Part shown: positions 21,492 through 49,237 of the stretch, piece by piece | Numbering within the stretch: the stretch's first letter is position 1 | Layout of the letters: each line of letters begins with the position of its first letter | Source of the DNA: a bacterium | GTDB taxonomy: Bacteria > CG03 | DNA: 49,237 nucleotides | Assembly (NCBI GenBank): GCA_013791675.1 | Contig: VMTI01000208.1 | Location: 1 to 49,237 of the forward strand | Reading direction: 5' to 3' | Notes under the pieces: generated by a model | What the model was told of the DNA's origin: nothing | Seen by the model: only the letters and a program-made list of their open reading frames with translations | The model's database searches: none | Position numbers and translations under genes: made by a program

Positions 21492-21522
21492 GTTTCCTCC
21501 CTGCTTTCGCAGTGTAGCAAAT

Positions 21523-23920: not shown

Positions 23921-24045
23921 ACAATTTTGAGGAAATAGATGTTTTATGGGGATTTAAGAAATTATCCTGCAAGGATGATTATGTTTTTCAGTTTGGCTAA
24001 GTTAATTTTGTTGTTTTCCAAGCCATATTAAGATAGGGGGAAGAA

Positions 24046-25827: not shown

Positions 25828-25833
25828 TTTTAC

Positions 25834-27048: not shown

Positions 27049-27052
27049 CTAA

Positions 27053-28045: not shown

Positions 28046-28054
28046 ATACTGACA

Positions 28055-29065: not shown

Positions 29066-29146
29066 TTTGATCCGGAAAGTAATAAAAAAATATGATTATC
29101 GGACATGAAATTTGAAATACGGGGAAAGTTTGCTAAAATTAAAACT

Positions 29147-30013: not shown

Positions 30014-30996
30014 GATACAGGAAACTTCTTGTCACCGGCGGCGCCGGATTCATAGGGAGCGAGTTTGTCAGACAGAATGCCGGGAAATACAGAATAGCGG
30101 TTGTTGATAAACTCACATACGCGGGCGACATTAAGCGCCTGGCGGAAGTCGCGGGTAAATACTCTTTTTACAAAACGGATATTTGCGACTCGCGTAAAAT
30201 AGAAGCTGTTTTCAAAAAAGAAAAACCCGACGCTGTTGCCCATTTTGCCGCGGAAAGTCACGTTGACCGGAGCATTGACGACGCCTCGGTTTTTATGACG
30301 ACCAATGTCATAGGCACGCAGGTGCTGCTGGACGCGGCTAAAAAGCATAAGGTAAAAAGATTCCTGCATGTGTCCACCGACGAGGTTTATGGGGATATTA
30401 TCAAAGGAACATTCAGCGAGAATTCGCCTTTTTCACCGAACTCCCCTTACGCGGTGAGCAAGGCCGCCGCGGATATGCTCGTGTCCGCCTATCACAGGAC
30501 TTACGGACTGCCGGTTGTGATAATGAGGGCGAGCAATAATTACGGTCCCTGGCAGTTCCCGGAAAAACTTATTCCCGTTATAATAATGAACGCGCTCAAA
30601 AATAAAAGGGTGCCGGTTTACGCCAAAGGCCTGAACGTGCGGGAGTGGCTGTATGTCACGGATTGCGCGAAAGCGGTCGCCGCTATTCTTGAAAAGGGCG
30701 ACGACGGCCAGGCCTACAATGTCGGGAGCGGCATGGAGAAAAAAAATATTGATGTGGTCAGGGGCATTCTTGACGCGCTCGGAAAGCCGGATCGGCTCAT
30801 AGAGTTTGTGAAAGACAGGCCCGGCCACGATATAAGATATGCGCTGTCCGTCGCAAAAATAAGGCAAAAGCTCCGCTGGAAGGCGGGGACGGCCTTCGCC
30901 GAGGGGCTGAAAAAAACCGTTGACTGGTATGTAAAAAACACAAAGTGGACAGCGCGCGTTCTGACGGAAGAAAAAAAGACGGGGAGATCAAAATGA
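30010..30996 (+). CDS. rfbB: dTDP-glucose 4,6-dehydratase
   Basis: [26 protein letters not shown] (YxxxK), [11 protein letters not shown] 30010 overlaps the rfbA stop (ATGA). The track start 29893 lies inside rfbA. Confidence 0.92.
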
Positions 30997-32735
30997 ACAA
31001 CAATCAAAAAAAATCGCGTTTCTGGTTTTATGCCAGCGTCGCCGTGGTGGCCTTTTTTGCCCTGAAGTTTGCCGCTAATCACGTCAGGGGAAACGATTTT
31101 AAAGCCTCTTTCGTCGCGGAAGCTCATGCGCAGGACGCCTCAGCTAAAACGGCATCGAGCCCTGCTTCTTCGGAAATCGGCACGAGCAGGAACCTGGATA
31201 CGCCGCTGGGCTTGCGGCTTTTAAGTTTTTTCGGCATTTTCGTGCTTCTACTGATAAGCTACGCGATGTCGGTTGACAGGAAAAACATAAACTGGCGGCC
31301 GGTGATATGGGGGATAGCCCTCCAACTGATCTTCGGCCTCATAGTCCTGTCTGATACCGTCGGCTATTTTTTCTTCAATGTCGTCGATTACAGCGTCAAC
31401 ATCCTCCTTTCTTTCAGCGAGGAGGGTGCGGCTTTTGTTTTCGGCAAACTCGCTTACGGCCCGGGAAATCCCAGGGGGCTTAATGAGGGGATGTTTTTCT
31501 TTTTCTCGGTTCTGCCGACAATTGTTTTTTTCTCCTCTCTTATGACTATCCTTTATCATCTTGGGGTCATGCAGTTTATAGTCGAGAAGATAGCCCATGT
31601 GATGCAGAAGACGATGAAGACTTCCGGATCCGAGACCCTGTCGGCGGCGGCGAACATATTCGTCGGCCAGACGGAAGCGCCTCTTGTCATTAAGCCGTTT
31701 ATAAAAAACATGACGACCAGTGAGCTCCACGCGGTCATGACGGGAGGTTTTGCAACGGTGGCCGGAGGCGTGATGGCGGCGTATGTGCTTTTTCTGAAAG
31801 ATTATATTCCAAACATTGCGGGGCATCTCGTCACGGCGAGCATAATGAGCGCGCCGGCGGCGCTTGCCGTCTCAAAAATAGTGTACCCCCAGACAGAACA
31901 TTCGGAAACGACGGGAGAAACGAAAATAGAGGTTGAAAAGCCCGATGCCAATGTTATAGAGGCCGCCGCGCGCGGCGCTTCCGAGGGCATGACCCTTATG
32001 CTCAATGTCGCGGCAATGCTCATGGCTTTTGTCGGCATGATAGCGATGGTCAATTTCGGGCTGGAAAAATTCTGTGATTTGACCAGCAGTATGGTCGGCA
32101 GGAATCCTTATAAACTGGTTCTCGATGAGGCCGCGGCCAAAAATATAAAGCAGGGCGACACAATAAGCATCAACAACGGGATAATGACTTTTGAGTACAA
32201 TGTGAAGGAAACGCGGAGTAAGAGCGTTATCATAAAAGAAAGGCTTTCCTCGACTTACAAAAGCAGCCCATACACCGTCCGCCGCGGCGGCAAACTTCTT
32301 TTCAGAGGTACGGACGCCAAAGGTTCCAAGCCGCTGTTTTTTCTGAATCTCTCCATCCTTTTCGGCCTGATATTTTCTCCGATAGCATGGACGATGGGCG
32401 TGCCGTGGAGAGAGGCCGCGGTGGTGGGAAGGCTCCTCGGCGAGAAGCTCATTCTCACGGAATTCATCGCGTATCTGAATCTTGCGGGTATACTGAAGAC
32501 CGGATACCAGACCTTATCGGGCGAGGTGATAATGCTCTCGCAGCGTTCGGCGGTGATAGCGTCCTACGCGCTGTGCGGTTTCGCGAATTTCGCTTCCATA
32601 GGGATACAGATAGGCGGTATAGGCGGCATCGCCCCGAACAAAAGAGCGGCGCTTGCCAAAATAGGGATCAGGGCGATGTTTGCCGGAGCCATAGCCGCCT
32701 GCATGACCGGCACGGTCGCCGGAATACTGATGTAA
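30993..32735 (+). CDS. concentrative nucleoside transporter (NupC/CNT family) with N-terminal extension and internal ~85-aa insertion
   Basis: VFGKLAY, NIFVGQTEAPL, SELHAVMTGGFATVAG, IFSPIAWTMGVPW, ALCGFANFASIG. ATG 30993 overlaps the rfbB stop. Confidence 0.85.
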   Translation: MNNNQKKSRFWFYASVAVVAFFALKFAANHVRGNDFKASFVAEAHAQDASAKTASSPASSEIGTSRNLDTPLGLRLLSFFGIFVLLLISYAMSVDRKNINWRPVIWGIALQLIFGLIVLSDTVGYFFFNVVDYSVNILLSFSEEGAAFVFGKLAYGPGNPRGLNEGMFFFFSVLPTIVFFSSLMTILYHLGVMQFIVEKIAHVMQKTMKTSGSETLSAAANIFVGQTEAPLVIKPFIKNMTTSELHAVMTGGFATVAGGVMAAYVLFLKDYIPNIAGHLVTASIMSAPAALAVSKIVYPQTEHSETTGETKIEVEKPDANVIEAAARGASEGMTLMLNVAAMLMAFVGMIAMVNFGLEKFCDLTSSMVGRNPYKLVLDEAAAKNIKQGDTISINNGIMTFEYNVKETRSKSVIIKERLSSTYKSSPYTVRRGGKLLFRGTDAKGSKPLFFLNLSILFGLIFSPIAWTMGVPWREAAVVGRLLGEKLILTEFIAYLNLAGILKTGYQTLSGEVIMLSQRSAVIASYALCGFANFASIGIQIGGIGGIAPNKRAALAKIGIRAMFAGAIAACMTGTVAGILM

Positions 32736-33594: not shown

Positions 33595-34164
33595 ATGATA
33601 AAAGTGGTTTTAGTGTTATGCGCTGTGTTTTTAAATTCATGCGCGGGGACGAGCTATATAACGCCGGACACGGTGACAAAGTATGATTCAAAATTCAGCG
33701 ATACCGACCTGAAAATGATGTCGTCTTACATGGCGGAATCACTGAAAAATTCGGATGTTATTAAGGGTGCGGAAAAAAAGGCGCTGGGTATTCTGCATAT
33801 TAAAAACAAAACCAGCGAGCACATAAACAGCGACGGCATCGCGGATAAACTTATGGTCAATCTTCTGAAAACCGGTAAAGTCAAATTTGCCGACAGGGAG
33901 AACCTGAAAGAGCTCATAGAGGAACAGCGTTTGAGCGCCCTGGGTATGGTGGACGAGTCTAAGGCGAAGGAAATCGGAAAGCTTTATGGTATAGATTATT
34001 TTTTATCGGGTTTCATAGAATCAATTGAGAAGAGGTCATCACGGAGTGAATTGACATATTACCGTCTGAGTTTGAAACTCACGGATGTTGAGACGGGTGA
34101 GATTGTGTGGGCGGATGAAATGGAGCTTAAAAAAAAGAGCAGTACTCATATAATGGACTGGTGA
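33595..34164 (+). CDS. LpoB-like (penicillin-binding-protein activator family) lipoprotein
   Basis: Lipobox FLNSC. ILHIKNKTSEH, GKVKFADRENL, GIDYFLSGFIESI, YYRLSLKLTDVETGEIVWADE - colinear with E. coli LpoB as I recall it. Confidence 0.7.
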   Translation: MIKVVLVLCAVFLNSCAGTSYITPDTVTKYDSKFSDTDLKMMSSYMAESLKNSDVIKGAEKKALGILHIKNKTSEHINSDGIADKLMVNLLKTGKVKFADRENLKELIEEQRLSALGMVDESKAKEIGKLYGIDYFLSGFIESIEKRSSRSELTYYRLSLKLTDVETGEIVWADEMELKKKSSTHIMDW

Positions 34165-34174
34165 AAATAAAAAA

Positions 34175-35326
34175 ATGCGCACAGCAGAAGAGAAATTAAA
34201 AATTCGCGGCGCCAAGGTTTTTGTCTGTCTGGCAGGTCTTGTTTTCCTCGGCTCGTGCGGCGGTCCGCTCCAATATACAAAAAACGGCGATTTGCATTAT
34301 TCGCGGGGAGAATATGAGCGGGCTGCGGCGGAATACAGGAAAAATATCAAATATTATGAGAGCATAAATTATCCGCTTTATATGCTGAATCTCGCCGTGG
34401 CCAATTACAGGGCGGGTTTGTTGGATGAGTCTGAAAGAGCATTTTTGACGGCTTTGAAACTTTCGCGCGGCGAGAATTTGAGCGCGCTTGAGAAAAATTT
34501 CGGTTTTCTCGCGCCGAAGTCGGAGGAAAGTTATCGTCTCAGGAATTATGAGGAAGTCATGGCGCATTTTTATCTTGCTCTGATATATGTCAGGACGAAC
34601 AAACTGGATAAGGCAATAGTGGAATTTAAAAAGATAAATCTCATTGATCCTGAATATCCGCTCATGCGTTATATTATGGGGAAAAGTTATCAGCTTGACG
34701 GTAAGACGGAGGAAGCGGAAATAGAATTTCGTCTGACTAACAGATACAGAAAAGAATTTCCATACTCATATTTTGACAGGATTGAATTTTACGAGAGAAG
34801 CGGCATGAGCGGGGAAGCCGCGGGAGCGCTGAAAAAATATCTTGCGGCGGACGGCGGAAGCAGGCTCGCTGAAAAAGTGTCGGAAAGAGCTTTTGATTTT
34901 AGCGGGAGTGGCGAGTTAATAGTGCTTCTGGAACCGGAAAACCATGTTGAAAAGATTAAGAAAAAAAACAGAGGCTCATATTTTTATAAGATTTATATTG
35001 ACGGGGAATATTACGGCAAGTCGCACATCATAGAGGATATAGATTTGCAGAAGACGAAAAAACGAATAAGTAAAATGTTAAAAAGCGCGCTGAAGGATGC
35101 GGCGCGGTCAATGATTATAGAAAAAGTGTTTGGCGGCACGGCTTCGGATAATGTTGAGAGAAGGGAATGGGAAAAGATTCCGGGAATTGTACACATATTT
35201 AAAACGCATTTACCGACGGGCAGTTACAAGATGAAAGCGGTTCTTTATTTTAAGGAAATTGAAATCAGCGAAGCGGAAAGAACCGTTGAAATAAAGGAAA
35301 GCGGAGTTAGATTTGTGTCGTTTTAA
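34175..35326 (+). CDS. TPR-repeat lipoprotein
   Basis: Lipobox FLGSC. TPR-like helices (YERAAAEYRKNIKY, AHFYLALIYVRTNKLDKAIVEFKK), followed by a C-terminal non-TPR domain. Confidence 0.65.
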   Translation: MRTAEEKLKIRGAKVFVCLAGLVFLGSCGGPLQYTKNGDLHYSRGEYERAAAEYRKNIKYYESINYPLYMLNLAVANYRAGLLDESERAFLTALKLSRGENLSALEKNFGFLAPKSEESYRLRNYEEVMAHFYLALIYVRTNKLDKAIVEFKKINLIDPEYPLMRYIMGKSYQLDGKTEEAEIEFRLTNRYRKEFPYSYFDRIEFYERSGMSGEAAGALKKYLAADGGSRLAEKVSERAFDFSGSGELIVLLEPENHVEKIKKKNRGSYFYKIYIDGEYYGKSHIIEDIDLQKTKKRISKMLKSALKDAARSMIIEKVFGGTASDNVERREWEKIPGIVHIFKTHLPTGSYKMKAVLYFKEIEISEAERTVEIKESGVRFVSF

Positions 35327-35358
35327 AGCGCGCGGGTTTTAATAACCGAGGGGGGAAA

Positions 35359-36273
35359 ATGAAAAAAATGTTTTGTTATTGTGCGGCGGCCATTATTTTG
35401 ACAATTGGCCATGGTATTTTCGCTTATGAAGCGGAAGCCGAATCAAGTGTTGTCACGACAGATTCTGTTATCTGGCAGCAGACGAGTGTGGATACGATAG
35501 AGCCGACGCCGGATGCGGAAGAAACCGCGGTGGCGGAGGGTGTGGAAATGGGGATGCATATGATTATTGCGGACAAGACGAAAGTCGTTATTATTCCTCT
35601 TTCATATATTCTGCCGATAGATGTGATCGGCGGGAAGCTCTCACTCGGAGCCGGAATTCCATGGATACAGAAAACCAGCGCGGTAGATGAAACCAAATCA
35701 GGATTAGGGGATATTTCCCTTAAAGCCACGCATGACTACGGCGACGAAGTGTATTTCAGGAGAATATTTTCGGTTATCGTGAAACTGCCCACAGGGGATG
35801 AAGCCGCAAAATTCTCCGACGGTTCCTCCGCTCCTTTGGGAAAAGGGAGTCTTGATTACGCTTTCGCTTTTTCAGGAATCAGAAGGATGGGCACTTTCCG
35901 GCTTATAGGAAACGCGGGCTACAGATTTAACGGAGAATTTAAGGACACTGTCAATAATTTAACGAAAAAGTATGGCAATGTTATGAATCTGCTTGCGGGA
36001 ACGGAGTATAAGCTGAATTCACAGTTGTTTCCCTTTGTTTATGTGAGAATGGTTGAAACAGGTGAGTCGGAAACGGTATGGACGGGATGGTTATCGAAAA
36101 ATCAGGATGATGTAAAGGCAATAGACCTTATTACCGGCGCTAGATATAAAGTTCTTGGAAGTATCAGTTTAAGCGGCGCTTTGGAATTTCCTGTTTCCAG
36201 AAAATATCACGCCGGCGTCGTGGAGCCGCCGAACAAGGTCACCCTGACTTTGAAAGCGAATTATAAATTTTAG
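35359..36273 (+). CDS. outer-membrane beta-barrel protein (MetA-pathway/transporter-like family)
   Basis: Signal peptide ending FAYEAEA, alternating beta-strand pattern, SGLGDISLK motif, C-terminal aromatic residue (..ANYKF). Confidence 0.6.
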   Translation: MKKMFCYCAAAIILTIGHGIFAYEAEAESSVVTTDSVIWQQTSVDTIEPTPDAEETAVAEGVEMGMHMIIADKTKVVIIPLSYILPIDVIGGKLSLGAGIPWIQKTSAVDETKSGLGDISLKATHDYGDEVYFRRIFSVIVKLPTGDEAAKFSDGSSAPLGKGSLDYAFAFSGIRRMGTFRLIGNAGYRFNGEFKDTVNNLTKKYGNVMNLLAGTEYKLNSQLFPFVYVRMVETGESETVWTGWLSKNQDDVKAIDLITGARYKVLGSISLSGALEFPVSRKYHAGVVEPPNKVTLTLKANYKF

Positions 36274-36336
36274 GCTCTATCCGAAATCGGCTTGTCTGCC
36301 GGTAGGACGACCACAAGCCCACCTGCTCCGCCAACA

Positions 36337-36357
36337 GGCACGGTCTGCCGTTTTTTT
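36337..36357 (+). terminator. possible intrinsic terminator (short GGCA/TGCC stem + T7)
   Basis: T7 tract at 36351-36357 preceded by a weak 4-bp stem. A stronger 7-bp stem (GGCTTGT/ACAAGCC, 36289-36319) lies just upstream. The overall structure is unclear. Confidence 0.3.
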
Positions 36358-36407
36358 CTGCGTGTTGTAAGCATCAGGCTGATTTTGTAGACTTGCTTTG
36401 TAAACAA

Positions 36408-37196
36408 ATGTATAAAATAGCGGCAGCTTTATCTTTGATTATGTTTCTGGGATGTTCCGCTTCGGAAACACCCGTAAGCGCTCCTGAAATGACAGTCAGT
36501 TTTCTGCCTGTAGGGGGATATGCCGCGGTTTTTTCTCTTCCCTGCGGCGGAACAATGCTTGTGGACACGGGTGACGCGGGGCATGCCGGGCAACTTGTTA
36601 AAAGTGTTCGCGCTCAGATGCTGGGCGATCAGTTTGTGTATCGTTTCCTTTTATTTTTCGGATGGCAGCCGAGACTTGACTGGCTGGTCATCAGCGATTT
36701 TTCTCCGGAGAGAACCGGGGGTCTCAGGGAAATACTGGAAAATTTCCGGGTTTGGAAAATTTATCTGCCGTATGAGCTAAACAATCTGTTGATCGTCCAG
36801 TCGGATAGGATAAACAATTTAAGATTTCTTTTGGGGATGACGGGCAGGCCGCTGCTTTCGCTTTCATGCGTCGACGGCATTGAACTTTACCAGGACAAAA
36901 CCGGAATGAAATTTTTTGTGCTCAGGCCGGTGAAACCTCAAAAATCTGTTTTAGATTCATCGTTTTGCGCAAGGCTGGTTTACGGCGGTATGAGGTTTCT
37001 TTTAAGTTCCGCCCTGACTGAAAAAGATCAGGAACGTCTCTGCTCTTATATGGCGGAAGAGATTAACGCCGATGTGAGTTATCTGCACGATAATATCAGC
37101 GGCCGGTTCCTTGATATGGTTGCTCCGGTGAGAGAAATTCGCAGGGGAGAAGACGCCCGTTTTATTACCGACGGCACTGTTTTGGAAAAAATATAA
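36408..37196 (+). CDS. lipoprotein with degenerate ComEC-type metallo-beta-lactamase fold
   Basis: ATG 36408 gives MYKIAAALSLIMFLGCSAS (lipobox). VSFLPVGGYAAVFSLPCGGTMLVDTGDA is colinear with the ComEC MBL domain, but the HxHxDH position reads ISDFSPERTGG. Confidence 0.6.
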   Translation: MYKIAAALSLIMFLGCSASETPVSAPEMTVSFLPVGGYAAVFSLPCGGTMLVDTGDAGHAGQLVKSVRAQMLGDQFVYRFLLFFGWQPRLDWLVISDFSPERTGGLREILENFRVWKIYLPYELNNLLIVQSDRINNLRFLLGMTGRPLLSLSCVDGIELYQDKTGMKFFVLRPVKPQKSVLDSSFCARLVYGGMRFLLSSALTEKDQERLCSYMAEEINADVSYLHDNISGRFLDMVAPVREIRRGEDARFITDGTVLEKI

Positions 37197-40991: not shown

Positions 40992-42065
40992 TTATTTGAT
41001 CTTGTCGTATATGCCGGAAAGGGCTATTCTTTTATCCGTCATTTCTCTGTTATCAGCGTACATCAGAAATATATCTTCCCCTTTTCCGTCAAAACCGTAT
41101 AGTTCGCCGGCCCCGTCGGCAATGAGGCGAGACGGCACCAGCTTTTTCATTTCTGTGTTATAAAGGCGGTAGTCGGTTTCAACGCGGGTGTGAGAAATAT
41201 CGGCGGGCATGTGTATGGCGATGAGCCATTTGCTGTCAGCGCTGACATCCACGATCTGGAAAATTGATTTCGGATCGCGCACCAGCGTCTCTGTCCTGCC
41301 GTTTTTATCGGTCATCAGTATGGCGTTCTGGGATTCGTCCACATAGATTTTCGTCTGTTTTTCCCCGGGCGATTTGATTATGCCGATTTTTTTCTCAAAA
41401 GAGATGGCGCTCAGGCAGGTGTCGTCATATTTGTCGCCGTGGTAAACGCTGAGTATTTTGATCCGGAGGATGAACACCGCCCTCGGTTCCTGTTTCACGC
41501 CAGCGAGTTTTTCGCGGTTGATCTTTTTAAATTGCCTCGACGCCGAGTTTTTGAAACGCGCGAGCGCTTTCCATTTGAAAGGGAAATTTATTTTCTGCGG
41601 CCTTGATGAATCCTCAAGGGTGATCGTTTTCGTTTTTTTGTATGGCAGAGCGTTAAAGAGCACGCCTGTTTCCGTTACTTCGCCGGTAATGTGTATACCC
41701 GCGAGAATACTGAGCTCAGCCTGTTTGATCCTGTTGTTATCTTTGAATATTTTGTCGCTTTTAGCGTAGCCGTTCTGTATGACGATGATTTTTGTTCCTT
41801 CATCGATAGCAATGCTGACGCTTTCGCCAAGACCGTCGTCTTTGGCGCCTTCCGACCAGCAGGTCGCGGAATTGCCGTCAAAAAGATTGTGCGCGCCGTA
41901 GAGCCCGCGGACATAAGCGCCCCTGTTTTCCAGTTCGGAACTTGAAAAATAAAGATGCTCATAGCCGTCCCGCAGAATAATTTCTTCCCAGAGGTTTTTT
42001 TGAGGCGATGAGCATGCCGCGATAAAAGAAATTGTCACAGCCAGATATTTGACCGTTTTGTTCAT
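40992..42065 (-). CDS. lipoprotein with N-terminal discoidin/NADase-type glycan-binding-like domain
   Basis: Lipobox IAACS. NLFDGNSATCWSEGAKDDGLGESVSI, IQNGYAKS, NNRIKQAEL, YHGDKYDDTCLSAISF match the F5/8-type-C-like sensor domain pattern. The C-terminal half is uncharacterised. Confidence 0.55.
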   Translation of the reverse strand: MNKTVKYLAVTISFIAACSSPQKNLWEEIILRDGYEHLYFSSSELENRGAYVRGLYGAHNLFDGNSATCWSEGAKDDGLGESVSIAIDEGTKIIVIQNGYAKSDKIFKDNNRIKQAELSILAGIHITGEVTETGVLFNALPYKKTKTITLEDSSRPQKINFPFKWKALARFKNSASRQFKKINREKLAGVKQEPRAVFILRIKILSVYHGDKYDDTCLSAISFEKKIGIIKSPGEKQTKIYVDESQNAILMTDKNGRTETLVRDPKSIFQIVDVSADSKWLIAIHMPADISHTRVETDYRLYNTEMKKLVPSRLIADGAGELYGFDGKGEDIFLMYADNREMTDKRIALSGIYDKIK

Positions 42066-43663: not shown

Positions 43664-46600
43664 ATGCTCATGGAAAAGTTAAGACATAAACGCGGCGTCA
43701 TAGGCCGGCTGTTCCGGCCATTGGTCTCAATTTTAGTACTGTTCCCCATTCTTTCTCTGCTGCTTTGCTCCGCCCCCGCTTTTGCGGCTGATTTAATAAA
43801 TGAGAATTTTGATACTGCCGGATATTTCCCGCCGGCTGGTTGGGCAAGAAATAATGTGGCTATAACTACAAATACAACTTCTCCAAATAGTGCGCCGTAT
43901 CGTGTAACTGGTTTTGCCGGGGGCACAAGATATTTCTTTACCCCGCTACTTACAAATCCGGATAATCTAACTTTATATTTATTGGTCTCTAATACCGCTT
44001 CAATATTTGAGATTAGCGTAGGAACTTCTCAGGTTGTTAGCGGGGATTGGACAGTGGTATTTACAACCGGAGGGTTAACCAGTTGGGCACAGAACAGCGT
44101 CGATTTGTCCTCATATAATGACATCTATGTTAGATTTAGACGTTCTGCGGGTGCTAACTTCTTTTATATTGACGATGTTGTTGTTACAGCGAGGGAAACT
44201 ATCCCTCCCTGCGCGATATCAAATCTTACGGCGATTGCGGGGAGCAAAGCGGGGACGGTGCTGCTTAAATGGACAGCGCCCGGCGACGACGGCACAGGCA
44301 CGGCAAATGCTTCCGCTTATCTTGTTAAATACGCCACGAAATACATATCAACGGATGATTTTTACGCCCCCTGGGTTTCCACTTATACACAGAGCTGGAT
44401 ACCCGCCGCGTTCGGGGCCGAAGAAGGAACTACAGGCAATAGAGTTATAAGCAGTCTTGACCAGGGAACGACTTACTGGTTTGCAATTAAAACGAAAGAT
44501 GATTTAAATAATTGGTCGTCGTGGACTTCTTCCGGAACGGTGAGCTGGGTGAACACATCAAATTCTACGAGAACACTTATTGTGCCTCCGACACCGCCCG
44601 CGGCCATAAGCAATCTGACCGCTTTGACAGGGGACACAATTCAGGGAACAATAAAACTTCAATGGACAGCTCCCGGCGGCGATGGAACTAGCGGAGGAAA
44701 CGCCTCCGCGTATGAAGTGAAATACGCGACGAAATATATAGGGACGAACGATTATTACGCCAGCTGGGTCAGTACATATACACAGGACTGGATTCCCGCC
44801 GATGCAGGAACCGAAGAAGGAACATCGGGCAACAGGGTGATAAGCGGTTTGAATCCCGGCGCAATGTACTGGTTTGCCCTAAAGGCCCGCGACGAGGAAA
44901 TGGATTGGAGCGTGTGGACATCATCGGGGGATAATCCTTCGGTGAATGTTTTGAATTCAACGACGGCTTATTTGAACGAGCCGCCCTCGGCGGTAAGTAA
45001 TTTGACGGCGCTTTCCGAGGGATCCGGCCTGAGCGGCGAGATAACTCTTAAATGGACGGCGCCCGGCTCCGACGGCACGAATGGCACGGCCTCGGCGTAT
45101 GAATTGAAATACTCTACAAAATACATAAGCGCTGATGATTACGCCTCGTCATGGACAAATCTTTACGCGCAGAGTTGGACTCCGAACGCGGGCGGCTCTG
45201 AAGAATTGCATATACTCACCGGTTTTAAGGAGAGGACGACTTATTATTTCGCGGTTAAGACTTATGACGGCCACAGTTGGTCTGTGTGGCCCGGATCAAG
45301 CTCTGTCCCGAGTCCGTATATAAATCCGGATAGTTTTAATTTTACGACCTCATCCGCGCCCGCGCCTGTTGGTGACCTCTCATCGGGAACGGGCACAGGA
45401 GGGGGCTCTGTTATACTTTCCTGGACGGCTCCGGGGGATGACGGCACTCAGGGGGATTTAATTTCAGGGAGCAAGTTTCTTGTAAAATATTCGTCTTATC
45501 CCGCAAAAGATTGGGACGCGATGGATTACAGCTGGTATATATCGACGGTGACGGCGGCGGGCTCGTCAAACGCTTTTACGGTGACGGGGCTCATTGAGAG
45601 AGCGACTTATTATTTCTACATCAAGACCGCTGATGAAAGGCCTAACTGGTCGCCTCTTTCCAACAAGACGACGACCTGGGCGATGTTCACATATCCGCGG
45701 GGAGACCTCGTTATTGACGAGATAAGTTGGAAGATTTCTGAATCGGGGGATTCTTTAGTAGGAAATAAAAGATATGTAGAGATACAAAACAGAAGCACAT
45801 GGACAGTCGGCATTTCCCATTATTATGTGGGTACTGGCGGCGCCAGCGACGATATGCACTGGTCAAGCGGTGTGATACCTCCGGGTGGATTCTGGGTAAT
45901 AGTTGACGGTGCGGGAACCGATCAGAGTTTGGGAAACAGAATTTATACATTTGAGAATAATAGCGATTTAGGCACTTTATTTGATTTAGTCGCAACAGAT
46001 GATGTAATAGTAATATCAACAGCAAATACCGCGGGGCTGGGGCAGAATAAGGATAAGATTATTGATTTTGTGGCCTATACAGACGGCACGAATACACCCG
46101 TGGCAGAACCGATTGCGGATGTAAATGCCGCCATTGACGCGGGTCAATGGGATCTTTACGGAACGGGGGCGTCAAGTTGTGTGTGGGCGAGCAATGACAG
46201 TCAGCCGGGTGTTATAATCACGGAAGATTTTATACACAGGATACAATACGATGATATCGCAGGAAACTTGGCGACGCATTTTACAGTAACTTCTTATCCG
46301 TGTATAGGCGACACAATGGAATTTATACCGCCCGCCGCAGTTTCAAATCTCACTGCTTTGACCGGCGGTAACGGTCACGGCGGTGAAATAAAACTTGAGT
46401 GGACGGCGCCCGGCGACGACGGCACCGGAGGCGGCGATGCCGCCGCCTATCAGCTGAAATACGCTACAAGACAGATAGGCGCTGACGATTATGACGCGAG
46501 CTGGACAAATCTTTACGCCCAGAGCTGGACGCCCGTAACTTTTGGCACGGCGGAAAGCAGAATTCTTTCAATGCCCATAGAAGGCGCGACTTATTATTTT

Positions 46601-49237
46601 GCCATCAAAGCCCGTGACGGCGTCAACTGGGCGATCTGGCCCGGCACCTCGGCTATTATCAATTCTCAGAATTACAGCTACACAAGCTCATCCGCTCCGG
46701 CTCCGGTGAACGATCTTTTGGCAACGCAGGGCGATATAGAAGGTAAAATACTTCTCAGCTGGACAGCTCCGGGCGACGACGGCACAACTGGGGCGCTTGT
46801 TTCAGGAAGCCGTTTCCTTATAAGGTATTCCACAAAAGAGGCGCAGGTATGGGACGATATGGATTACAGTTTCAACATCAGCACGGCAGTCGCCGCCTTA
46901 ACGGAAAGCTCTCATGTTTTTACCGGTCTTGAAACCGGCGCCACTTATTATTTCTATATAAAAACCGCCGACGAAAGGCCGAACTGGTCGCCGCTTTCAA
47001 ATAAAACGACGGCCTGGGCTCAAGTTGCCGTTGACGGTTTATCAAACGGAATTCTCACCGACGGAGACCACGACTGGAGTTTTGAACAGGTGACATCAAA
47101 AGCGAAATGGACTTACAACGGCGGAACTGCCGCGGACTACGAATCAACCACTACTCCTTATGACAGAGAGCAATTGTTCAAATGGTCAACGCTGACAACT
47201 AATTGGTCGGGAAGAGAAATTGTGACAAATAATTTCATAAACGGTGTGCTGGCTAAATCGTCTAACACAGCAAGTGTGCGGTGGCGCTCAACATCCGGTA
47301 CTTTTGCCAATGCCCGTTTAAGAATTGTTGTTGAGTGGTATGATACGTCGTATAATCTTATATCAAAAAGCACAAGCACGGAATTTTCTCTCTCTACGCA
47401 AGATGACTGGTATCAGGCGACCTCCACATTTACGGCTCCGGTGGATTCTAAAAAAGCGAAGCTGAGATTTCAGGCTCTTTTTGTCGGCGGCGACGCAATT
47501 GTTTATCTGGATTCGGCTGGTTTCTGGACGGAAGGCGGCGACGAATACGCGCCTTGCCCCGTATCAAATCTGACCGCTTTAAGTCTGGGGACGGGGCTGG
47601 GGAGTCAGTTAACTCTTGAATGGACTGCCCCCGGCGCCGACGGAACTGGAACAGCCAATGTCACATCCTACGAAGTAAAATACGCCACGAAATATATATC
47701 TTCTTCTGATTTCGGCGCCGTCTGGACGAGCGTTTATCCGCAGAGCTGGACGCCCGTGACTTTCGGAACGAAGGAGAGCCGTCTGCTCACCGGCCTGGAC
47801 GAGGGAAGCACTTATTATTTTGCTGTTAAAGCGACGGAAGGAAATTACTGGAGCGCATGGCCGGGCACCTCCTCCGTCGTGAACAGTTTGAGTTTTAATT
47901 TTCCCACTTCGTCCGCTCCCGCAAAAGTAAATAACCTTTCGGCTTTAACGGGCCCGGTCGGCGGGTCTGTCAAACTCAACTGGACGTCGCCGGGCGATGA
48001 CGGCACGACGGGTTTTATATCGGGGCAGCTGCACATAAAATATTCTGCGACTGACGAGGCATGGGGTGCCATGCCGAACGAAATATTTATTTCAACGGAA
48101 GTGGCCGCCGTCACGGATTGTTCCTATACGGTTACGGGCCTAACCGAAGGCGTCACATATTATTTTTACATTAAGACGTCGGATGAGAAACCGAACTGGG
48201 CGGAAGAATCCAATAAAGCGTTTGCAGGGGCAGAGAGAACACCGCCGCCCGCGCCTAACGGACTTTTGTTTTATGATATTCACGACTGGAGTTTTGAGAA
48301 CTCCAGCAGCACCGCTAAATGGTCTTACACAACGACAAATGCCGAGTATGGCTCTGCCACCAAGCAGTATGACAGGAATAAATCCTTTAAGTGGGGAACG
48401 CTGACAACCTCGTGGGGAGGCCGCGAGATAGTGACGGATAATTTCATAGCCGGCCTTGTGAGCAATTCATCCCACACCGCAAGCATACAATGGATGACTT
48501 CATCCGTGGAATTCACGGAGCCCTCCGCAAGATTTATAGTCGAGTGGTACAACAGTTCAAACTCTCTCATATCAAAGAGCACCGGCACGGAATTTTCGCT
48601 TTCTTCAACAGGCGGCTGGCATTTGATGACATCCACTTTTACATCGCCTGCCGACACCAGAAAGGCGAAGCTGATGGTCCAGTCAAAGAAGATCACAACG
48701 AGTTCATCAACGTTTGTTTATTTTGACGCTGCCGGCTTCTGGGCGGGCGAATGGGATGAAGTGCCGCCCGGCGCAATCAGCAATCTCACGGCGCTTTCTC
48801 AGGGAACGAATCTCAGCGGCGATATCACCCTCAAATGGACGGCTCCCGGCTCCGACGGGACGGGCCGGGAAGATCTTTATGCCTACGAGGTGAAATACGC
48901 CACAAAATATATTTCGACTAACGACTATGACGCGAGCTGGACAAGCGTTTATTCACAGAACTGGACGCCCGCGAATTTCGGCAGCGGAGAAACTCACATA
49001 CTCACCGGCCTGGCCGAAGGAGCGACTTATTTCTTTGCCGTAAAGGGTTATGATGAGAGGAACTGGGGCGTGTGGCCTGGCACATCGTCAGCCGTAAACA
49101 GTTTGAGTTTTAAGTTAGCGTCGTCTTCCGCTCCTGCGGCGGTCAATGATTTGAACGCTGTAACGGGTGCGGCCGCGGGTGAGATAGATTTGTCGTGGAC
49201 AACGCCGGGCGACGACGGCACCACGGGAGATTTAATC
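43664..49237 (+). CDS. 5' part (at least 1,858 codons, no stop within window) of a secreted repeat-modular surface protein: signal peptide, jelly-roll-like N-domain, FN3-like modules, lamin-tail-like domain, CBM-like domains
   Basis: Not in the ORF track. In-frame TGA at 43628, first ATG at 43664. I checked every TAA/TAG/TGA string between 43664 and 49237 and none is in this phase. The window ends exactly in phase. N-terminus MLMEKLRHKRGVIGRLFRPLVSILVLFPILSLLLCSAPAFA/AD is a signal peptide. Ten W-T-[AST]-P-G-x-D-G-T modules. Confidence 0.92.
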   Translation, partial: MLMEKLRHKRGVIGRLFRPLVSILVLFPILSLLLCSAPAFAADLINENFDTAGYFPPAGWARNNVAITTNTTSPNSAPYRVTGFAGGTRYFFTPLLTNPDNLTLYLLVSNTASIFEISVGTSQVVSGDWTVVFTTGGLTSWAQNSVDLSSYNDIYVRFRRSAGANFFYIDDVVVTARETIPPCAISNLTAIAGSKAGTVLLKWTAPGDDGTGTANASAYLVKYATKYISTDDFYAPWVSTYTQSWIPAAFGAEEGTTGNRVISSLDQGTTYWFAIKTKDDLNNWSSWTSSGTVSWVNTSNSTRTLIVPPTPPAAISNLTALTGDTIQGTIKLQWTAPGGDGTSGGNASAYEVKYATKYIGTNDYYASWVSTYTQDWIPADAGTEEGTSGNRVISGLNPGAMYWFALKARDEEMDWSVWTSSGDNPSVNVLNSTTAYLNEPPSAVSNLTALSEGSGLSGEITLKWTAPGSDGTNGTASAYELKYSTKYISADDYASSWTNLYAQSWTPNAGGSEELHILTGFKERTTYYFAVKTYDGHSWSVWPGSSSVPSPYINPDSFNFTTSSAPAPVGDLSSGTGTGGGSVILSWTAPGDDGTQGDLISGSKFLVKYSSYPAKDWDAMDYSWYISTVTAAGSSNAFTVTGLIERATYYFYIKTADERPNWSPLSNKTTTWAMFTYPRGDLVIDEISWKISESGDSLVGNKRYVEIQNRSTWTVGISHYYVGTGGASDDMHWSSGVIPPGGFWVIVDGAGTDQSLGNRIYTFENNSDLGTLFDLVATDDVIVISTANTAGLGQNKDKIIDFVAYTDGTNTPVAEPIADVNAAIDAGQWDLYGTGASSCVWASNDSQPGVIITEDFIHRIQYDDIAGNLATHFTVTSYPCIGDTMEFIPPAAVSNLTALTGGNGHGGEIKLEWTAPGDDGTGGGDAAAYQLKYATRQIGADDYDASWTNLYAQSWTPVTFGTAESRILSMPIEGATYYFAIKARDGVNWAIWPGTSAIINSQNYSYTSSSAPAPVNDLLATQGDIEGKILLSWTAPGDDGTTGALVSGSRFLIRYSTKEAQVWDDMDYSFNISTAVAALTESSHVFTGLETGATYYFYIKTADERPNWSPLSNKTTAWAQVAVDGLSNGILTDGDHDWSFEQVTSKAKWTYNGGTAADYESTTTPYDREQLFKWSTLTTNWSGREIVTNNFINGVLAKSSNTASVRWRSTSGTFANARLRIVVEWYDTSYNLISKSTSTEFSLSTQDDWYQATSTFTAPVDSKKAKLRFQALFVGGDAIVYLDSAGFWTEGGDEYAPCPVSNLTALSLGTGLGSQLTLEWTAPGADGTGTANVTSYEVKYATKYISSSDFGAVWTSVYPQSWTPVTFGTKESRLLTGLDEGSTYYFAVKATEGNYWSAWPGTSSVVNSLSFNFPTSSAPAKVNNLSALTGPVGGSVKLNWTSPGDDGTTGFISGQLHIKYSATDEAWGAMPNEIFISTEVAAVTDCSYTVTGLTEGVTYYFYIKTSDEKPNWAEESNKAFAGAERTPPPAPNGLLFYDIHDWSFENSSSTAKWSYTTTNAEYGSATKQYDRNKSFKWGTLTTSWGGREIVTDNFIAGLVSNSSHTASIQWMTSSVEFTEPSARFIVEWYNSSNSLISKSTGTEFSLSSTGGWHLMTSTFTSPADTRKAKLMVQSKKITTSSSTFVYFDAAGFWAGEWDEVPPGAISNLTALSQGTNLSGDITLKWTAPGSDGTGREDLYAYEVKYATKYISTNDYDASWTSVYSQNWTPANFGSGETHILTGLAEGATYFFAVKGYDERNWGVWPGTSSAVNSLSFKLASSSAPAAVNDLNAVTGAAAGEIDLSWTTPGDDGTTGDLI
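44216..45700 (+). repeat. in-frame array of three A-type (~130 aa) and one B-type (~110 aa) FN3-like modules
   Basis: Equivalent I/V-S-N-L codons at 44216, 44606 and 44993 (spacing 390 and 387 nt). B-type V-G-D-L at 45368. Each has L.WTAPGxDGT ... Y.[VL]KY ... G.TY[YW]F hallmark strands. Confidence 0.8.
46340..49237 (+). repeat. ~1.2-kb in-frame tandem supermodule [A-type FN3 | B-type FN3 | CBM-like], 2.4 copies, truncated by the window end
   Basis: Equivalent codons: V/I-S-N-L at 46340/47561/48776, V-N-[DN]-L at 46706/47927/49142, H-D-W-S-F at 47069/48281. Periods are 1221 and 1215 nt. Confidence 0.85.

What the first reader, a model, noticed from the sequence alone, without database searches (positions are those of the whole stretch)
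46340..49237. Tandem ~1.2-kb supermodule (FN3-A / FN3-B / CBM-like) still repeating at the window edge
Equivalent landmark codons recur with constant offsets: V/I-S-N-L at 46340, 47561 and 48776; V-N-[DN]-L at 46706, 47927 and 49142; H-D-W-S-F at 47069 and 48281. The periods are 1221 and 1215 nt, always in frame. The copies are clearly diverged (by eye roughly half to two thirds of residues are shared in the CBM-like part). This therefore looks like an old higher-order duplication kept under selection, not an assembly artefact or a recent slippage repeat. A three-domain unit reiterated as a block is how very long fibre- or adhesin-type proteins are built, and it predicts more copies downstream.
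Basis: seen in the sequence. Interest (0 to 1): 0.7.

Follow-up and report, generated by a model that had tools for sequence, protein, structure and literature searches.

The report
Repeated FN3–FN3–CBM cassette in surface protein
The repeat is real: an old, in-frame duplication of a three-domain cassette (two fibronectin-III domains plus a sugar-binding-type jelly roll) inside a 3,534-residue secreted surface protein of an uncultured groundwater Elusimicrobiota bacterium, which is an ordinary way of building long bacterial surface fibres.

Summary
**Observation:** confirmed. All eight landmark codons sit where stated, and the periods are 1221 and 1215 nt, in frame. Units U1 (46340-47560) and U2 (47561-48775) share 52.6% of residues and 59% of bases.

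**Age and selection:** synonymous sites are saturated, with dN about 0.39. A 79% ortholog gives dN/dS of 0.08-0.19 per domain. This is an old duplication under purifying selection and not an artefact.

**The "CBM-like" part:** it is a divergent member of the CBM4/9/16/22 jelly-roll superfamily.
- AlphaFold2 model: pLDDT 94.
- Foldseek: CBM22, CBM4 and CBM16, TM 0.6-0.69.
- Family profile against the CBM22 structure 1DYO: E = 4e-4.

**Gene context:** the window is a whole contig. It ends inside a 77-residue exact repeat, and all nine NCBI copies of the gene are truncated. One JGI version is complete at 3,534 aa and identical over the window part.

**Downstream prediction:** only partly right. 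The gene continues for 1,678 more residues and four more FN3-A/FN3-B pairs (counting the partial one), but the CBM-like module never recurs. The third slot varies: LTD, CBM, CBM, two FN3, none, two FN3, several FN3. The array really starts at 44993.

**Function:** no catalytic domain was found. There is a signal peptide and a CHU_C/FlgD-Ig-like C-terminal tail. The most likely role is an extended glycan-binding adhesin or fibre. This is a new member of a known kind, of low to moderate interest.

The parts
43664..49237 (+). 5' part (1,858 codons) of a 3,534-3,536-codon gene for a secreted FN3-rich surface protein. It is cut by the contig end. An alternative ATG lies at 43670.
   Evidence: The frame is open from 43631 to the window end. 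The product is identical over 1,856 aa to the full-length JGI protein P0130.
43664..43786 (+). Predicted Sec signal peptide: a basic n-region, a hydrophobic core and an AFA|AD cleavage motif.
   Evidence: Read from the sequence MLMEKLRHKRGVIGRLFRPLVSILVLFPILSLLLCSAPAFA|ADL. This is an inference; no predictor was run.
43787..44203 (+). N-terminal domain of about 140 aa with no family assignment. It ends in FFYIDDVVV.
   Evidence: No Pfam hit at E<=10. hhalign against the CBM-like profile gives probability 7.6%. The 79% ortholog L002 has a lamin-tail-like domain here instead.
44216..44566 (+). FN3-A copy 1 (A1)
   Evidence: phmmer with A4 as query, E=1.5e-29; Pfam fn3.
44606..44956 (+). FN3-A copy 2 (A2)
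   Evidence: phmmer E=1.1e-31.
44993..45355 (+). FN3-A copy 3 (A3), the first domain of the first A-B-X cassette
   Evidence: phmmer E=2e-40; repeat families D2, D4 and D7.
45356..45685 (+). FN3-B copy 1 (B1)
   Evidence: phmmer with B2 as query, E=2.6e-44; 64% identical to B2.
45686..46318 (+). Lamin-tail-like domain (LTD), the third element of cassette 1
   Evidence: Pfam LTD E=4.3e-6, 27.5 bits, below the 34.3-bit cut-off. Conserved in ortholog L002, dN/dS 0.19.
46340..46693 (+). FN3-A copy 4 (A4), the start of unit U1 of the finding
46694..47023 (+). FN3-B copy 2 (B2)
47039..47551 (+). CBM-like jelly-roll domain, copy 1 (CBM1)
   Evidence: AF2 pLDDT 94.0, pTM 0.90. Foldseek finds CBM22, CBM4 and CBM16 at probability 1.00, TM 0.6-0.69. 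Pfam CBM_4_9 E=0.07, near full length but below threshold.
47561..47914 (+). FN3-A copy 5 (A5), the start of unit U2
   Evidence: phmmer E=5.5e-44 against A4.
47915..48235 (+). FN3-B copy 3 (B3), the most diverged B copy
   Evidence: phmmer E=6.7e-32 against B2; 51-55% identical to every other B copy.
48251..48766 (+). CBM-like jelly-roll domain, copy 2 (CBM2)
   Evidence: phmmer E=2.4e-52 against CBM1; 52% identity; Pfam CBM_4_9 E=0.008.
48776..49129 (+). FN3-A copy 6 (A6), the start of the third unit
   Evidence: phmmer E=3.7e-43.
49130..49237 (+). First 36 codons of FN3-B copy 4 (B4), cut by the contig end
   Evidence: In P0130 this B4 is followed by two other FN3 domains, not by a CBM-like domain.
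49061..49237 (+). First copy of a 77-aa exact intragenic repeat (P0130 aa 1798-1874 = 2217-2293). It is the likely cause of the assembly break that ends the window.
   Evidence: Exact amino-acid repeat. The last 66 nt of the window are identical to the start of contig L001, which begins in the second copy. All nine NCBI versions of the protein are truncated in the repeat region.

Best explanation
The finding lies inside one very long gene. It is 1,858 codons in the window and 3,534 in the only complete assembly. The organism is an uncultured groundwater Elusimicrobiota bacterium.

**Domain order**
- Sec signal peptide
- an unassigned N-terminal beta-rich domain
- two lone FN3-A domains
- seven FN3-A/FN3-B pairs, each followed by a variable 'payload': a lamin-tail-like domain, a CBM4/9/22-like jelly roll, a second such jelly roll, two other FN3 domains, nothing, two FN3, several FN3
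- a carboxypeptidase-regulatory-like domain
- an 80-residue C-terminal beta tail of the CHU_C/FlgD-Ig/Por_Secre_tail kind

**What the repeat is**
They are most simply explained as an ancient block duplication, now about 53% identical and kept under purifying selection.

**How it most likely works (inferred, not shown)**
- The protein is exported through Sec.
- It is sorted to or held at the cell surface by its C-terminal tail.
- It forms an extended stalk of about 25 beta-sandwich domains and has no enzymatic domain.
- The FN3 pairs act as rigid spacers. The two CBM-like modules and the LTD act as laterally displayed binding modules for a glycan or other polymeric ligand, giving multivalent adhesion.

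**Ongoing change**
The younger C-terminal cassettes are 78-93% identical and include a 77-residue exact repeat. This shows continuing duplication or gene conversion, and it explains why short-read assemblies, including this window, break inside the gene.
For: **Repeat and its statistics:**

**Age and selection**
- Paralogs: pS 0.76 (saturated), dN 0.39.
- Orthologs (window vs L002, 79% identity): dN/dS 0.075-0.19 for every domain, including CBM1 at 0.158.

**Full-length architecture**
- The 90% cluster holds P0130, 3,534 aa, with 0 mismatches over the 1,856 aa it shares with the window.
- Pfam finds 22 fn3 stretches, CarboxypepD_reg (E=2.2e-8) and no catalytic family.
- Domain map.

**CBM-like identity**
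- Pfam CBM_4_9 matches near full length but below threshold, E=0.07 and 0.008.
- 11 of 22 family members hit CBM_4_9, best E=7.8e-8.
- The family profile hits the CBM22 structures 1H6X and 1DYO at E=4e-4.
- AF2 pLDDT 94.
- Foldseek top hits are CBM22, CBM4-2, CBM16 and CBM61, probability 1.00, TM to target 0.6-0.69.

**C-terminal tail**
- It is homologous to the extreme C-termini of more than 40 related giant FN3 proteins.
- 17 of 23 of those tails match CHU_C, 13 match FlgD_ig and 7 match Por_Secre_tail.

**Similar arrangement elsewhere**
- P0058 reads FN3-CBMl-FN3-FN3-CBMl-FN3.
- P0006, P0160 and P0163 combine the same CBM-like domain with the same FN3 types.

**Setting**
- Chromosomal context of ordinary genes.
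- Taxon taken from >=90% identical neighbour proteins named Elusimicrobia HGW-Elusimicrobia-2 / Elusimicrobiota.

**Assembly break at an exact repeat:**
Against: **No functional evidence**
- Ligand binding by the CBM-like modules is untested.
- Both window copies fall below Pfam's CBM_4_9 threshold (14 and 17 bits against 25.9).
- Of the CBM22-2 cleft residues I recall as important, only Trp53 is conserved (W56 in both copies). Glu138 aligns with Gln145 and Tyr103 with Ser111. The loop alignment is unreliable and the residue roles come from memory.

**C-terminal tail is weak by itself**
- It does not reach any family threshold on its own: Por_Secre_tail E=0.033 and CHU_C E=0.07.
- Whether this organism has a type IX or other matching sorting machinery could not be examined.

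**Block duplication is not proven by domain trees**
- A4/A5 (56%) and B2/B3 (53%) are not mutual nearest neighbours.

**Downstream unit count rests on one assembly**
- P0130 residues 1857-2247 rest on a single JGI assembly of a highly repetitive region.
- No independent fragment covering them was found.
- The number of downstream units could be wrong through collapse or chimerism.

**Three-domain structure not obtained**
- The single-sequence AF2 model of a whole cassette failed (pLDDT 39.5), so the three-domain geometry is unknown.
Confidence: 0.62

Rival explanations
1. A structural envelope or S-layer-like protein. The whole chain, jelly rolls included, is scaffold that forms a surface coat or sheath. 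The CBM-like domains are spacers or stabilisers with no ligand of their own.
For: - No catalytic or canonical adhesin tip domain.
- The CBM-like copies score below the Pfam threshold, and the CBM22 cleft residues are only partly conserved.
- Non-binding 'CBM' spacers are described in xylanases (PMC8280721, discussion quoted).
Against: - The CBM-like domain is conserved as strongly as the FN3 domains: ortholog dN/dS is 0.16, and 87 positions are invariant between the two paralogs, including exposed aromatics W13, W24, W56, W100 and W124.
- The same rare domain is reused as a discrete module in many otherwise different proteins, often N-terminal or in tandem. That pattern is typical of binding modules.
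Confidence: 0.15
2. A non-catalytic component of a polysaccharide-harvesting system. The protein would be a surface glycan-capture protein that feeds separately encoded enzymes or transporters, like cellulosome-type or SusE/F-type binding proteins. It would not be an adhesin for attachment.
For: - CBM4/9/16/22-type fold.
- FN3-FN3-CBM trios are classic in glycoside hydrolases (from my own knowledge: B. circulans ChiA1, C. thermocellum CbhA).
- Some hits in the same protein search carry S8 peptidase or discoidin domains.
Against: - No glycoside hydrolase, lyase, dockerin/cohesin or TonB-dependent transporter gene was found in the protein or its neighbours. The upstream genes are VanZ, Band_7, a NADase_transloc-domain protein, HAD and SNF. 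The downstream genes are TPR, PsbP-like, RecD2, PD-(D/E)XK and a methyltransferase.
Confidence: 0.13
3. A cell-to-cell attachment fibre used by a host-dependent or predatory lifestyle, as proposed for very long proteins of Omnitrophota and other uncultured groundwater lineages.
For: - Groundwater candidate-phylum origin.
- One copy of the protein is annotated as Candidatus Omnitrophica.
- There is literature on giant surface proteins in such lineages (bioRxiv 10.1101/2023.11.21.568195, listed). I saw the abstract only.
Against: - At 3,534 aa the protein is far below the sizes discussed there.
- No peptidoglycan-degrading or toxin domain was found.
- Nothing in the contig indicates a reduced or host-dependent genome.
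Confidence: 0.07
4. An assembly artefact. The ~1.2-kb repeat, or the gene's apparent continuity, would be produced by mis-joining of reads from related strains or paralogs.
For: - The gene is demonstrably hard to assemble. Nine of ten database copies are truncated, the window itself ends in an exact repeat, and the middle of P0130 has single-assembly support.
Against: - U1 and U2 are only 59% identical in DNA, so they cannot be confused by an assembler.
- The window part is reproduced at 99.9-100% identity in several independent assemblies from different samples.
- A 79% ortholog has the same domain order through CBM1.
Confidence: 0.02

Closest known systems
CBM22 / CBM4 / CBM16 beta-jelly-roll carbohydrate-binding modules (Pfam CBM_4_9, PF02018), for example CBM22-2 of Clostridium thermocellum Xyn10B (PDB 1DYO) and CBM22-1 of Paenibacillus barcinonensis Xyn10C (4XUO)
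   Same: - Same fold (Foldseek probability 1.00, TM to target 0.62-0.69).
- Detectable profile similarity over nearly the whole domain (E=4e-4).
- Shared N-terminal 'xSFE' motif and C-terminal 'Y-x-D' motif.
- Trp53 of CBM22-2 aligns with an invariant Trp (W56).
   Different: - Only 11-18% identical, and below Pfam's gathering score.
- Not attached to any glycoside hydrolase.
- Belongs to a rare subfamily: 44 hits at E<=1e-3 among 1.84 billion representatives.
- Other cleft residues are not conserved, and the ligand is unknown.
FN3-FN3-CBM trios of bacterial glycoside hydrolases (B. circulans chitinase A1: two FnIII plus a chitin-binding domain; C. thermocellum CbhA: X1-X1-CBM3). From my own knowledge.
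   Same: Two tandem FN3-type domains immediately precede a carbohydrate-binding-type module.
   Different: - Here the trio is itself reiterated and there is no catalytic domain.
- The FN3 pair also precedes non-CBM payloads: an LTD or further FN3 domains.
Giant repetitive bacterial adhesins (LapA, SiiE, BapA, MpIBP) built from tandem Ig-like repeats with ligand-binding modules. From my own knowledge.
   Same: A very long, secreted, enzyme-free chain of beta-sandwich domains, with interspersed putative ligand-binding domains and recently homogenised internal repeats.
   Different: - Those use BIg/cadherin-like repeats, a C-terminal RTX type-1 secretion signal and an N-terminal retention module.
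- This protein has an N-terminal Sec signal, FN3 repeats and a CHU_C/FlgD-Ig-like C-terminal tail.
- No RTX or Big family reached threshold.
Titin A-band super-repeats (ordered Ig/FN3 patterns of 7 and 11 domains reiterated as blocks). From my own knowledge.
   Same: Higher-order periodicity: a fixed order of distinct beta-sandwich domain types duplicated as a block, so that equivalent positions are more alike than neighbours.
   Different: - Titin is eukaryotic and intracellular, with many more copies.
- Here there are only two copies of the A-B-CBM block and two to three copies of the A-B-C-D block.
- This is an analogy only, with no homology beyond the FN3 fold.
Large FN3/LTD proteins of Elusimicrobiota and neighbouring candidate phyla found in the search (for example P0002, P0006, P0008, P0058, P0062), annotated 'lamin tail domain-containing' or 'fibronectin type III domain-containing'
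   Same: - Same FN3-A/FN3-B types, LTD inserts and the same C-terminal tail.
- P0058 has a comparable FN3/CBM-like alternation.
   Different: - Identity is only 26-49% over parts of the protein.
- Domain orders differ, and none has been studied experimentally as far as the searches show.

Membership tests
Fibronectin type III domain (Pfam PF00041) | Significant match to the fn3 profile above the gathering score | tested here: met
   Window protein: E=6.7e-38, 129 bits against a 25-bit cut-off, 8 stretches. Full-length P0130: E=7.9e-91, 22 stretches.
CBM_4_9 superfamily (CBM4/9/16/22; Pfam PF02018) | Sequence match to the family profile at or above the gathering score (25.9 bits) | tested here: not met
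   CBM1 scores 13.9 bits (E=0.072) and CBM2 scores 17.0 bits (E=0.008). Both are near full length (profile positions 8-132 of 136) but below the cut-off.
CBM_4_9 superfamily (CBM4/9/16/22; Pfam PF02018) | Transitive or profile-level homology to bona fide members | tested here: met
   11 of 22 aligned homologs of the domain hit CBM_4_9, best E=7.8e-8. The family profile hits the CBM22 structures 1H6X, 1DYO, 2WYS and 4XUO at E=3.6e-4 to 3.5e-3.
CBM_4_9 superfamily (CBM4/9/16/22; Pfam PF02018) | Beta-jelly-roll fold of the CBM4/16/22 type | tested here: met
   AF2 model with pLDDT 94.0 and pTM 0.90. Foldseek against the PDB: CBM22, CBM4-2, CBM16 and CBM61 at E about 1e-7 to 1e-6, probability 1.00, TM to target 0.60-0.69.
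CBM_4_9 superfamily (CBM4/9/16/22; Pfam PF02018) | Carbohydrate binding in the concave-face cleft through conserved aromatic or acidic residues | tested here: inconclusive
   From the HMMER alignment to 1DYO: Trp53 aligns with W56 (kept in both copies), Glu138 with Q145, Tyr103 with S111, and Arg25 with N27 in CBM1 (T in CBM2). The residue roles are recalled from the CBM22-2 mutagenesis literature and were not verified here. Binding itself cannot be tested with these tools.
Lamin tail domain (Pfam PF00932) | Match to the LTD profile at or above the gathering score (34.3 bits) | tested here: inconclusive
   27.5 bits, E=4.3e-6, covering profile positions 4-107 of 109. Many homologs carry PF00932. 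It is likely a divergent LTD.
Type IX secretion C-terminal sorting domains (CHU_C PF13585; Por_Secre_tail TIGR04183/PF18962) | C-terminal domain of about 70-90 aa matching a CTD profile | tested here: inconclusive
   The protein's own tail scores Por_Secre_tail E=0.033 (14.2 against 23 bits) and CHU_C E=0.07. It is homologous to the C-termini of more than 40 relatives. Of 23 such tails, 17 hit CHU_C (best 1.2e-11), 13 hit FlgD_ig and 7 hit Por_Secre_tail. The tail lies outside the window, in P0130 and L001.
Type IX secretion C-terminal sorting domains (CHU_C PF13585; Por_Secre_tail TIGR04183/PF18962) | Presence of the cognate T9SS machinery (SprA/PorV/PorU and others) in the genome | not testable with these tools
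   Only contigs of 49 kb and 11 kb are available, and no such genes are on them.
RTX/T1SS giant adhesins (LapA/SiiE/MpIBP type) | BIg-type tandem repeats, C-terminal RTX nonapeptide repeats and a T1SS signal | tested here: not met
   No RTX/HemolysinCabind family and no Big family above threshold (Big_3_3 E=0.35) in Pfam scans of the window protein and of P0130. An N-terminal Sec-type signal is present instead.
Modular glycoside hydrolases with FN3-FN3-CBM | A catalytic glycoside hydrolase, lyase or esterase domain in the same polypeptide | tested here: not met
   Pfam and NCBIfam find no catalytic family in 3,534 aa. The only unassigned stretches are the 140-aa N-terminal domain and about 80 aa beside the LTD.

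The most novel reading that the evidence does not exclude
The FN3-A/FN3-B pair may be a conserved 'carrier' cassette into which different payload domains (LTD, CBM-like jelly roll, FN3 pair) are plugged and exchanged by recombination.

On this reading the protein is a rapidly reconfigurable display stalk.
- Its payloads and length would vary between strains.
- One sign of this is the N-terminal domain swap in the 79% ortholog.
- Another is the near-identical C-terminal cassettes.
- A third is the calling of some copies from an internal start codon.

The CBM-like module would then found a new CBM family, specific to candidate phyla, with a non-classical ligand.
Probability: 0.2. Interest if true: 0.45.

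Novelty: new member of a known kind. Interest (0 to 1): 0.25.

Why it matters
**Limited general importance.** Long bacterial surface proteins are routinely built by reiterating blocks of beta-sandwich domains. This case adds a documented example from an uncultured groundwater Elusimicrobiota lineage.

**Three practical points**
- **Assembly:** the gene is a systematic assembly breaker. Nine of ten public copies are truncated, so its length and repeat number are under-reported in MAG annotations.
- **Unannotated domain:** the CBM-like module is a rare, unannotated branch of the CBM4/9/22 superfamily (44 detectable relatives among 1.84 billion representatives). It could be defined as a new family and tested for ligand.
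- **Module exchange:** the variable third slot after a conserved FN3 pair, together with the N-terminal domain swap in the ortholog, gives a small natural example of module exchange in surface proteins.

Tried and rejected
- **Tandem Repeats Finder:** no rows. The period exceeds its 500-nt limit and the copies are too diverged. This is uninformative and is not evidence against the repeat.
- **Self-BLASTP of the protein:** returned only the trivial self hit. I replaced it with global alignment, diagonal counts and phmmer.
- **The search for homologous proteins with CBM1 alone:** no hit, not even to itself. I treated this as a limit of the word index. The exhaustive search found 44 relatives.
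- **Single-sequence AF2 of a whole A-B-CBM cassette:** pLDDT 39.5, unusable. The three-domain geometry was therefore not obtained.
- **Getting the 63.5-kb JGI contig.**
  - The look-up of encoding contigs has no record of P0130.
  - A look-up through the upstream VanZ gene returned only contigs truncated inside the gene.
  - The metagenome scan returned the C-terminal contig L001 and ortholog L002.
  - The GTDB genome scan found no relative.
- **Search for an independent fragment covering P0130 residues 1857-2253:** none at high identity.
- **N-terminal domain as a third CBM-like copy:** rejected. hhalign probability is 7.6% and there is no Pfam hit.
- **Paralog dN/dS for U1 vs U2:** not computable because pS >= 0.75. 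Ortholog dN/dS was used instead.
- **Literature searches for Elusimicrobia with FN3 or LTD proteins:** nothing.
- **Confirming the CBM22-2 cleft residue roles in an open paper:** failed, so that mapping is kept only as a lead.
- **Phage tail fibre or mobile-element origin:** considered and rejected. The context is chromosomal housekeeping-type genes, there is a Sec signal, and the window has no tRNA or Rfam features.


Full report
**1. The observation**

The frame holding 46340 is open from 43631 to the last base of the window. The likely start is ATG 43664 or 43670.
- VSNLT at 46340 and 47561, ISNLT at 48776
- VNDLL at 46706, VNNLS at 47927, VNDLN at 49142
- HDWSF at 47069 and 48281

A nucleotide self-comparison of 46340-49237 gives identity of 0.386 at offset 1215 and 0.342 at offset 1221. 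The background is 0.251 +/- 0.015, so z = 8.8 and 6.0. The repeat finder reports families with spacing 1221 and 1215 nt.

Unit U1 (46340-47560, 407 aa) and U2 (47561-48775, 405 aa) align end to end with 212 of 403 identical residues (52.6%) and only six gap columns. The partial third unit is 58-61% identical to the first two. The phmmer E-values between equivalent parts are 5.5e-44 (FN3-A), 6.7e-32 (FN3-B) and 2.4e-52 (CBM-like).

**2. Age, selection and artefact**

The two units are 59% identical in DNA. Third positions are 39.5% identical, pS is 0.76 (saturated) and dN is 0.39. A formal paralog dN/dS therefore cannot be computed, but dN is far below the saturated dS.

A better test comes from an ortholog on contig SWCC01002928.1 (locus L002). 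It is 79.5% identical over 1,073 aa and has the same domain order through CBM1. Per-domain dN/dS against the window is 0.075-0.19, with A4 at 0.090, B2 at 0.105 and CBM1 at 0.158. The copies are old and under purifying selection.

Copies this diverged cannot be confused by an assembler or made by slippage, and TRF finds nothing. The window sequence recurs at 99.9-100% identity in independent assemblies from several samples.

**3. What the domains are**

- **FN3.** Pfam finds fn3 at E=6.7e-38 with 8 stretches in the window protein.
- **CBM-like part, sequence.** There is no Pfam hit above threshold. Both copies match CBM_4_9 (PF02018) over almost the whole profile at E=0.07 and 0.008.
- **CBM-like part, relatives.** An exhaustive profile search of 1.84 billion representatives found only 44 relatives at E<=1e-3 and 12 at E<=1e-10. 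I aligned 22 domain copies (A2). Eleven of them hit CBM_4_9, best E=7.8e-8. The profile hits solved CBM22 modules of C. thermocellum Xyn10B (1H6X, 1DYO, E about 4e-4) and P. barcinonensis Xyn10C.
- **CBM-like part, fold.** With that alignment AlphaFold2 gives a confident beta-sandwich (pLDDT 94.0, pTM 0.90). Foldseek against the PDB returns CBM22, CBM4-2, CBM16 and CBM61 at probability 1.00, with TM to target 0.60-0.69.

So 'CBM-like' is right. It is a divergent, rare branch of the CBM4/9/16/22 jelly-roll superfamily.

Whether it binds sugar is open. In the HMMER alignment to 1DYO, Trp53 aligns with W56, which is kept in both copies. Glu138 aligns with Q145 and Tyr103 with S111. The roles of those residues are recalled from the CBM22-2 mutagenesis literature and could not be verified in an open paper.

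**4. The whole gene**

The window is an entire 49,237-bp contig (one search lists the window's product P0129 on a contig of that length). The 90%-identity cluster has eleven versions of this protein.
- Nine NCBI copies are partial. N-terminal fragments end at residues 1441-1856 and C-terminal fragments start at 2248-2875.
- One JGI version, P0130, is complete at 3,534 aa. It is identical to the window product over all 1,856 shared residues.

The window ends inside a 77-residue exact repeat (P0130 residues 1798-1874 = 2217-2293). Its last 66 nt are identical to the first bases of contig L001, which begins in the second copy. The contig end is therefore an assembly break at a repeat and not a biological end.

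*Domain map*:

| Segment | Content |
|---|---|
| N-terminus | signal peptide, then an unassigned 140-aa domain |
| Lone FN3 | A1, A2 |
| Cassette 1 | A3-B1-LTD |
| Cassette 2 (U1) | A4-B2-CBM1 |
| Cassette 3 (U2) | A5-B3-CBM2 |
| Cassette 4 | A6-B4 plus two other FN3 |
| Cassette 5 | A7-B5 |
| Cassette 6 | A8-B6 plus two FN3 |
| Cassette 7 | A9-B7 plus several FN3 |
| C-terminus | CarboxypepD_reg-like domain (E=2.2e-8), then an 80-aa tail |

The CBM-like domain occurs exactly twice. No catalytic family is detected in Pfam or NCBIfam.

The C-terminal tail alone is sub-threshold: Por_Secre_tail E=0.033 and CHU_C E=0.07. It is nevertheless homologous to the extreme C-termini of more than 40 related large FN3 proteins. 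Of 23 such tails, 17 match CHU_C, 13 match FlgD_ig and 7 match Por_Secre_tail.

**5. How the repeat arose**

Several features argue that A-B-CBM was copied as a block:
- The unit lengths are nearly equal.
- The B-to-CBM and CBM-to-A linkers are in register.
- Divergence is similar in the three parts: 56% (FN3-A), 51% (FN3-B) and 51% (CBM-like).

The FN3 identity matrices are close to star-like, however:
- A4 is 56% identical to A5 but 59% to A3.
- A5 is 67% identical to A8.
- B2 is 64-65% identical to B1 and B7 but 53% to B3.

So U1 and U2 are not mutual nearest neighbours in the FN3 parts. Unequal rates (B3 is the most diverged B against all others) or later conversion among A-B pairs would explain this, and the data cannot discriminate.

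The C-terminal cassettes are much younger:
- A7-A9 are 90-93% identical and B4-B7 are 78-88% identical.
- A8 vs A9 has dS 0.40 and dN/dS 0.12.
- Exact 34-50-nt repeats recur at offset 1257 nt in L001.

A period of roughly 1.26 kb thus continues downstream (A6 to A7 is 420 aa, A8 to A9 is 419 aa), but as a four-FN3 unit.

Caveat: P0130 residues 1857-2247 have single-assembly support, and no independent fragment was found. The downstream count may be off.

**6. Organism and context**

Neighbouring proteins are >=90% identical to proteins of 'Elusimicrobia bacterium HGW-Elusimicrobia-2' and 'Elusimicrobiota bacterium'. The best distant homologs of the giant protein are also mostly Elusimicrobiota.
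- Upstream genes: VanZ-like, SPFH/Band 7, a NADase_transloc F5/8-type-C protein, HAD hydrolase and an SNF transporter.
- Downstream genes in L001: a TPR protein, a PsbP-like protein, RecD2 helicase, a PD-(D/E)XK nuclease and a methyltransferase.
- There are no glycoside hydrolases, transporters of the Sus type, phage genes, tRNAs or Rfam features.

**7. Mechanism**

*Shown:*
- a Sec-type N-terminus by sequence
- about 25 beta-sandwich domains
- two CBM-fold modules and one LTD-like module interspersed
- a conserved C-terminal beta tail of the CHU_C/FlgD-Ig kind
- no enzyme domain
- purifying selection on every domain

*Inferred:* the protein is exported and retained or sorted by its C-terminal tail. 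It then extends from the surface as a fibre. The FN3 pairs are spacers, and the jelly rolls and LTD are laterally presented binding modules that give multivalent attachment to a glycan or other polymer.

*Rivals:* a purely structural coat protein, a nutrient-polymer capture protein working with separately encoded enzymes, and a cell-cell attachment fibre of a host-dependent lifestyle. None is excluded by sequence alone.

**8. Comparison with what is known, and novelty**

The cassette resembles several known systems:
- the FN3-FN3-CBM trios of chitinase A1 and CbhA, but without an enzyme
- giant repetitive adhesins (LapA, SiiE, MpIBP), but it lacks their BIg repeats and RTX/T1SS signal
- titin super-repeats, as an analogy for block-wise reiteration of ordered domain types

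Related Elusimicrobiota proteins share the same FN3 types, LTD inserts, CBM-like domain and C-terminal tail. One of them (P0058) shows a comparable FN3/CBM-like alternation.

This is a new member of a known kind of protein. Its mildly novel elements are the rare CBM4/9/22-like subfamily and the variable 'third slot' behind a conserved FN3 pair.

**Verdict:** the finding is real and largely well described, biologically ordinary, and of low to moderate interest (0.25).

Noticed in passing
window 19611-31000: A low-GC stretch (0.35-0.43 against about 0.49 elsewhere) holds a sugar-nucleotide and glycan-modification cluster. It encodes three GDP-mannose/dTDP-glucose-dehydratase-type epimerases, a nucleotidyl transferase, a C-methyltransferase, a glycosyltransferase-like protein and further methyltransferases. 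This looks like a surface-polysaccharide locus, possibly laterally acquired.
   Followed up: partly
window 33595-37196: An LpoB/CsgG-like lipoprotein and a TPR protein are followed by two ORFs of 304 and 267 aa with no Pfam family. ORFs of matching size and order occur in the ortholog contig L002, and the same gene order is called in other assemblies (L003, L004). This may be an uncharacterised envelope module.
   Followed up: partly
window 40992-42065 (-): A 357-aa protein carries a 'NAD glycohydrolase translocation F5/8 type C' domain (PF25302, E=2.5e-22). It lies two genes upstream of the giant gene (VanZ and Band_7 lie between), on the opposite strand, and the position is conserved in all related contigs.
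   Followed up: no
L002 9224-10000 (ortholog, SWCC01002928.1) vs window 43787-44203: In the 79% ortholog the unassigned N-terminal domain of the window protein is replaced by a lamin-tail-like domain, while everything from FN3-A1 onward is collinear. This is a domain swap at the N-terminus between close relatives.
   Followed up: partly
cluster members P0124, P0126, P0128 (equivalent to window from about 44258): Three 99.9%-identical NCBI copies are called from an internal GTG at residue 197, although they sit on contigs of 22-50 kb. The N-terminal part may be interrupted or different in those assemblies.
   Followed up: no
window 49061-49237 and L001 1-68: The contig ends inside a 77-aa exact intragenic repeat. 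Its last 66 nt are identical to the start of another contig that begins in the second copy. The same gene breaks nine of ten public assemblies.
   Followed up: yes
L001 3-3848 (C-terminal 1,281 codons of the same gene): There is a second, younger higher-order repeat of four FN3 domains (A-B-C-D) with a 1257-nt period and exact 34-50-nt matches. A8 vs A9 is 92% identical in protein, with dS 0.40.
   Followed up: yes
L001 3719-5317: The longest ORF for the downstream TPR protein overlaps the end of the giant gene by about 130 nt. Its true start is probably further downstream.
   Followed up: no
P0153 (332 aa, JGI fragment on a 1,260-nt contig): A fragment from a relative begins with the last 48 residues of the CBM-like domain. 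It also matches the FN3-rich middle segment of P0130 at 64% identity over 35% of that query. This suggests the CBM-to-FN3 junction exists in another organism, but the fragment's own domain order was not mapped.
   Followed up: partly
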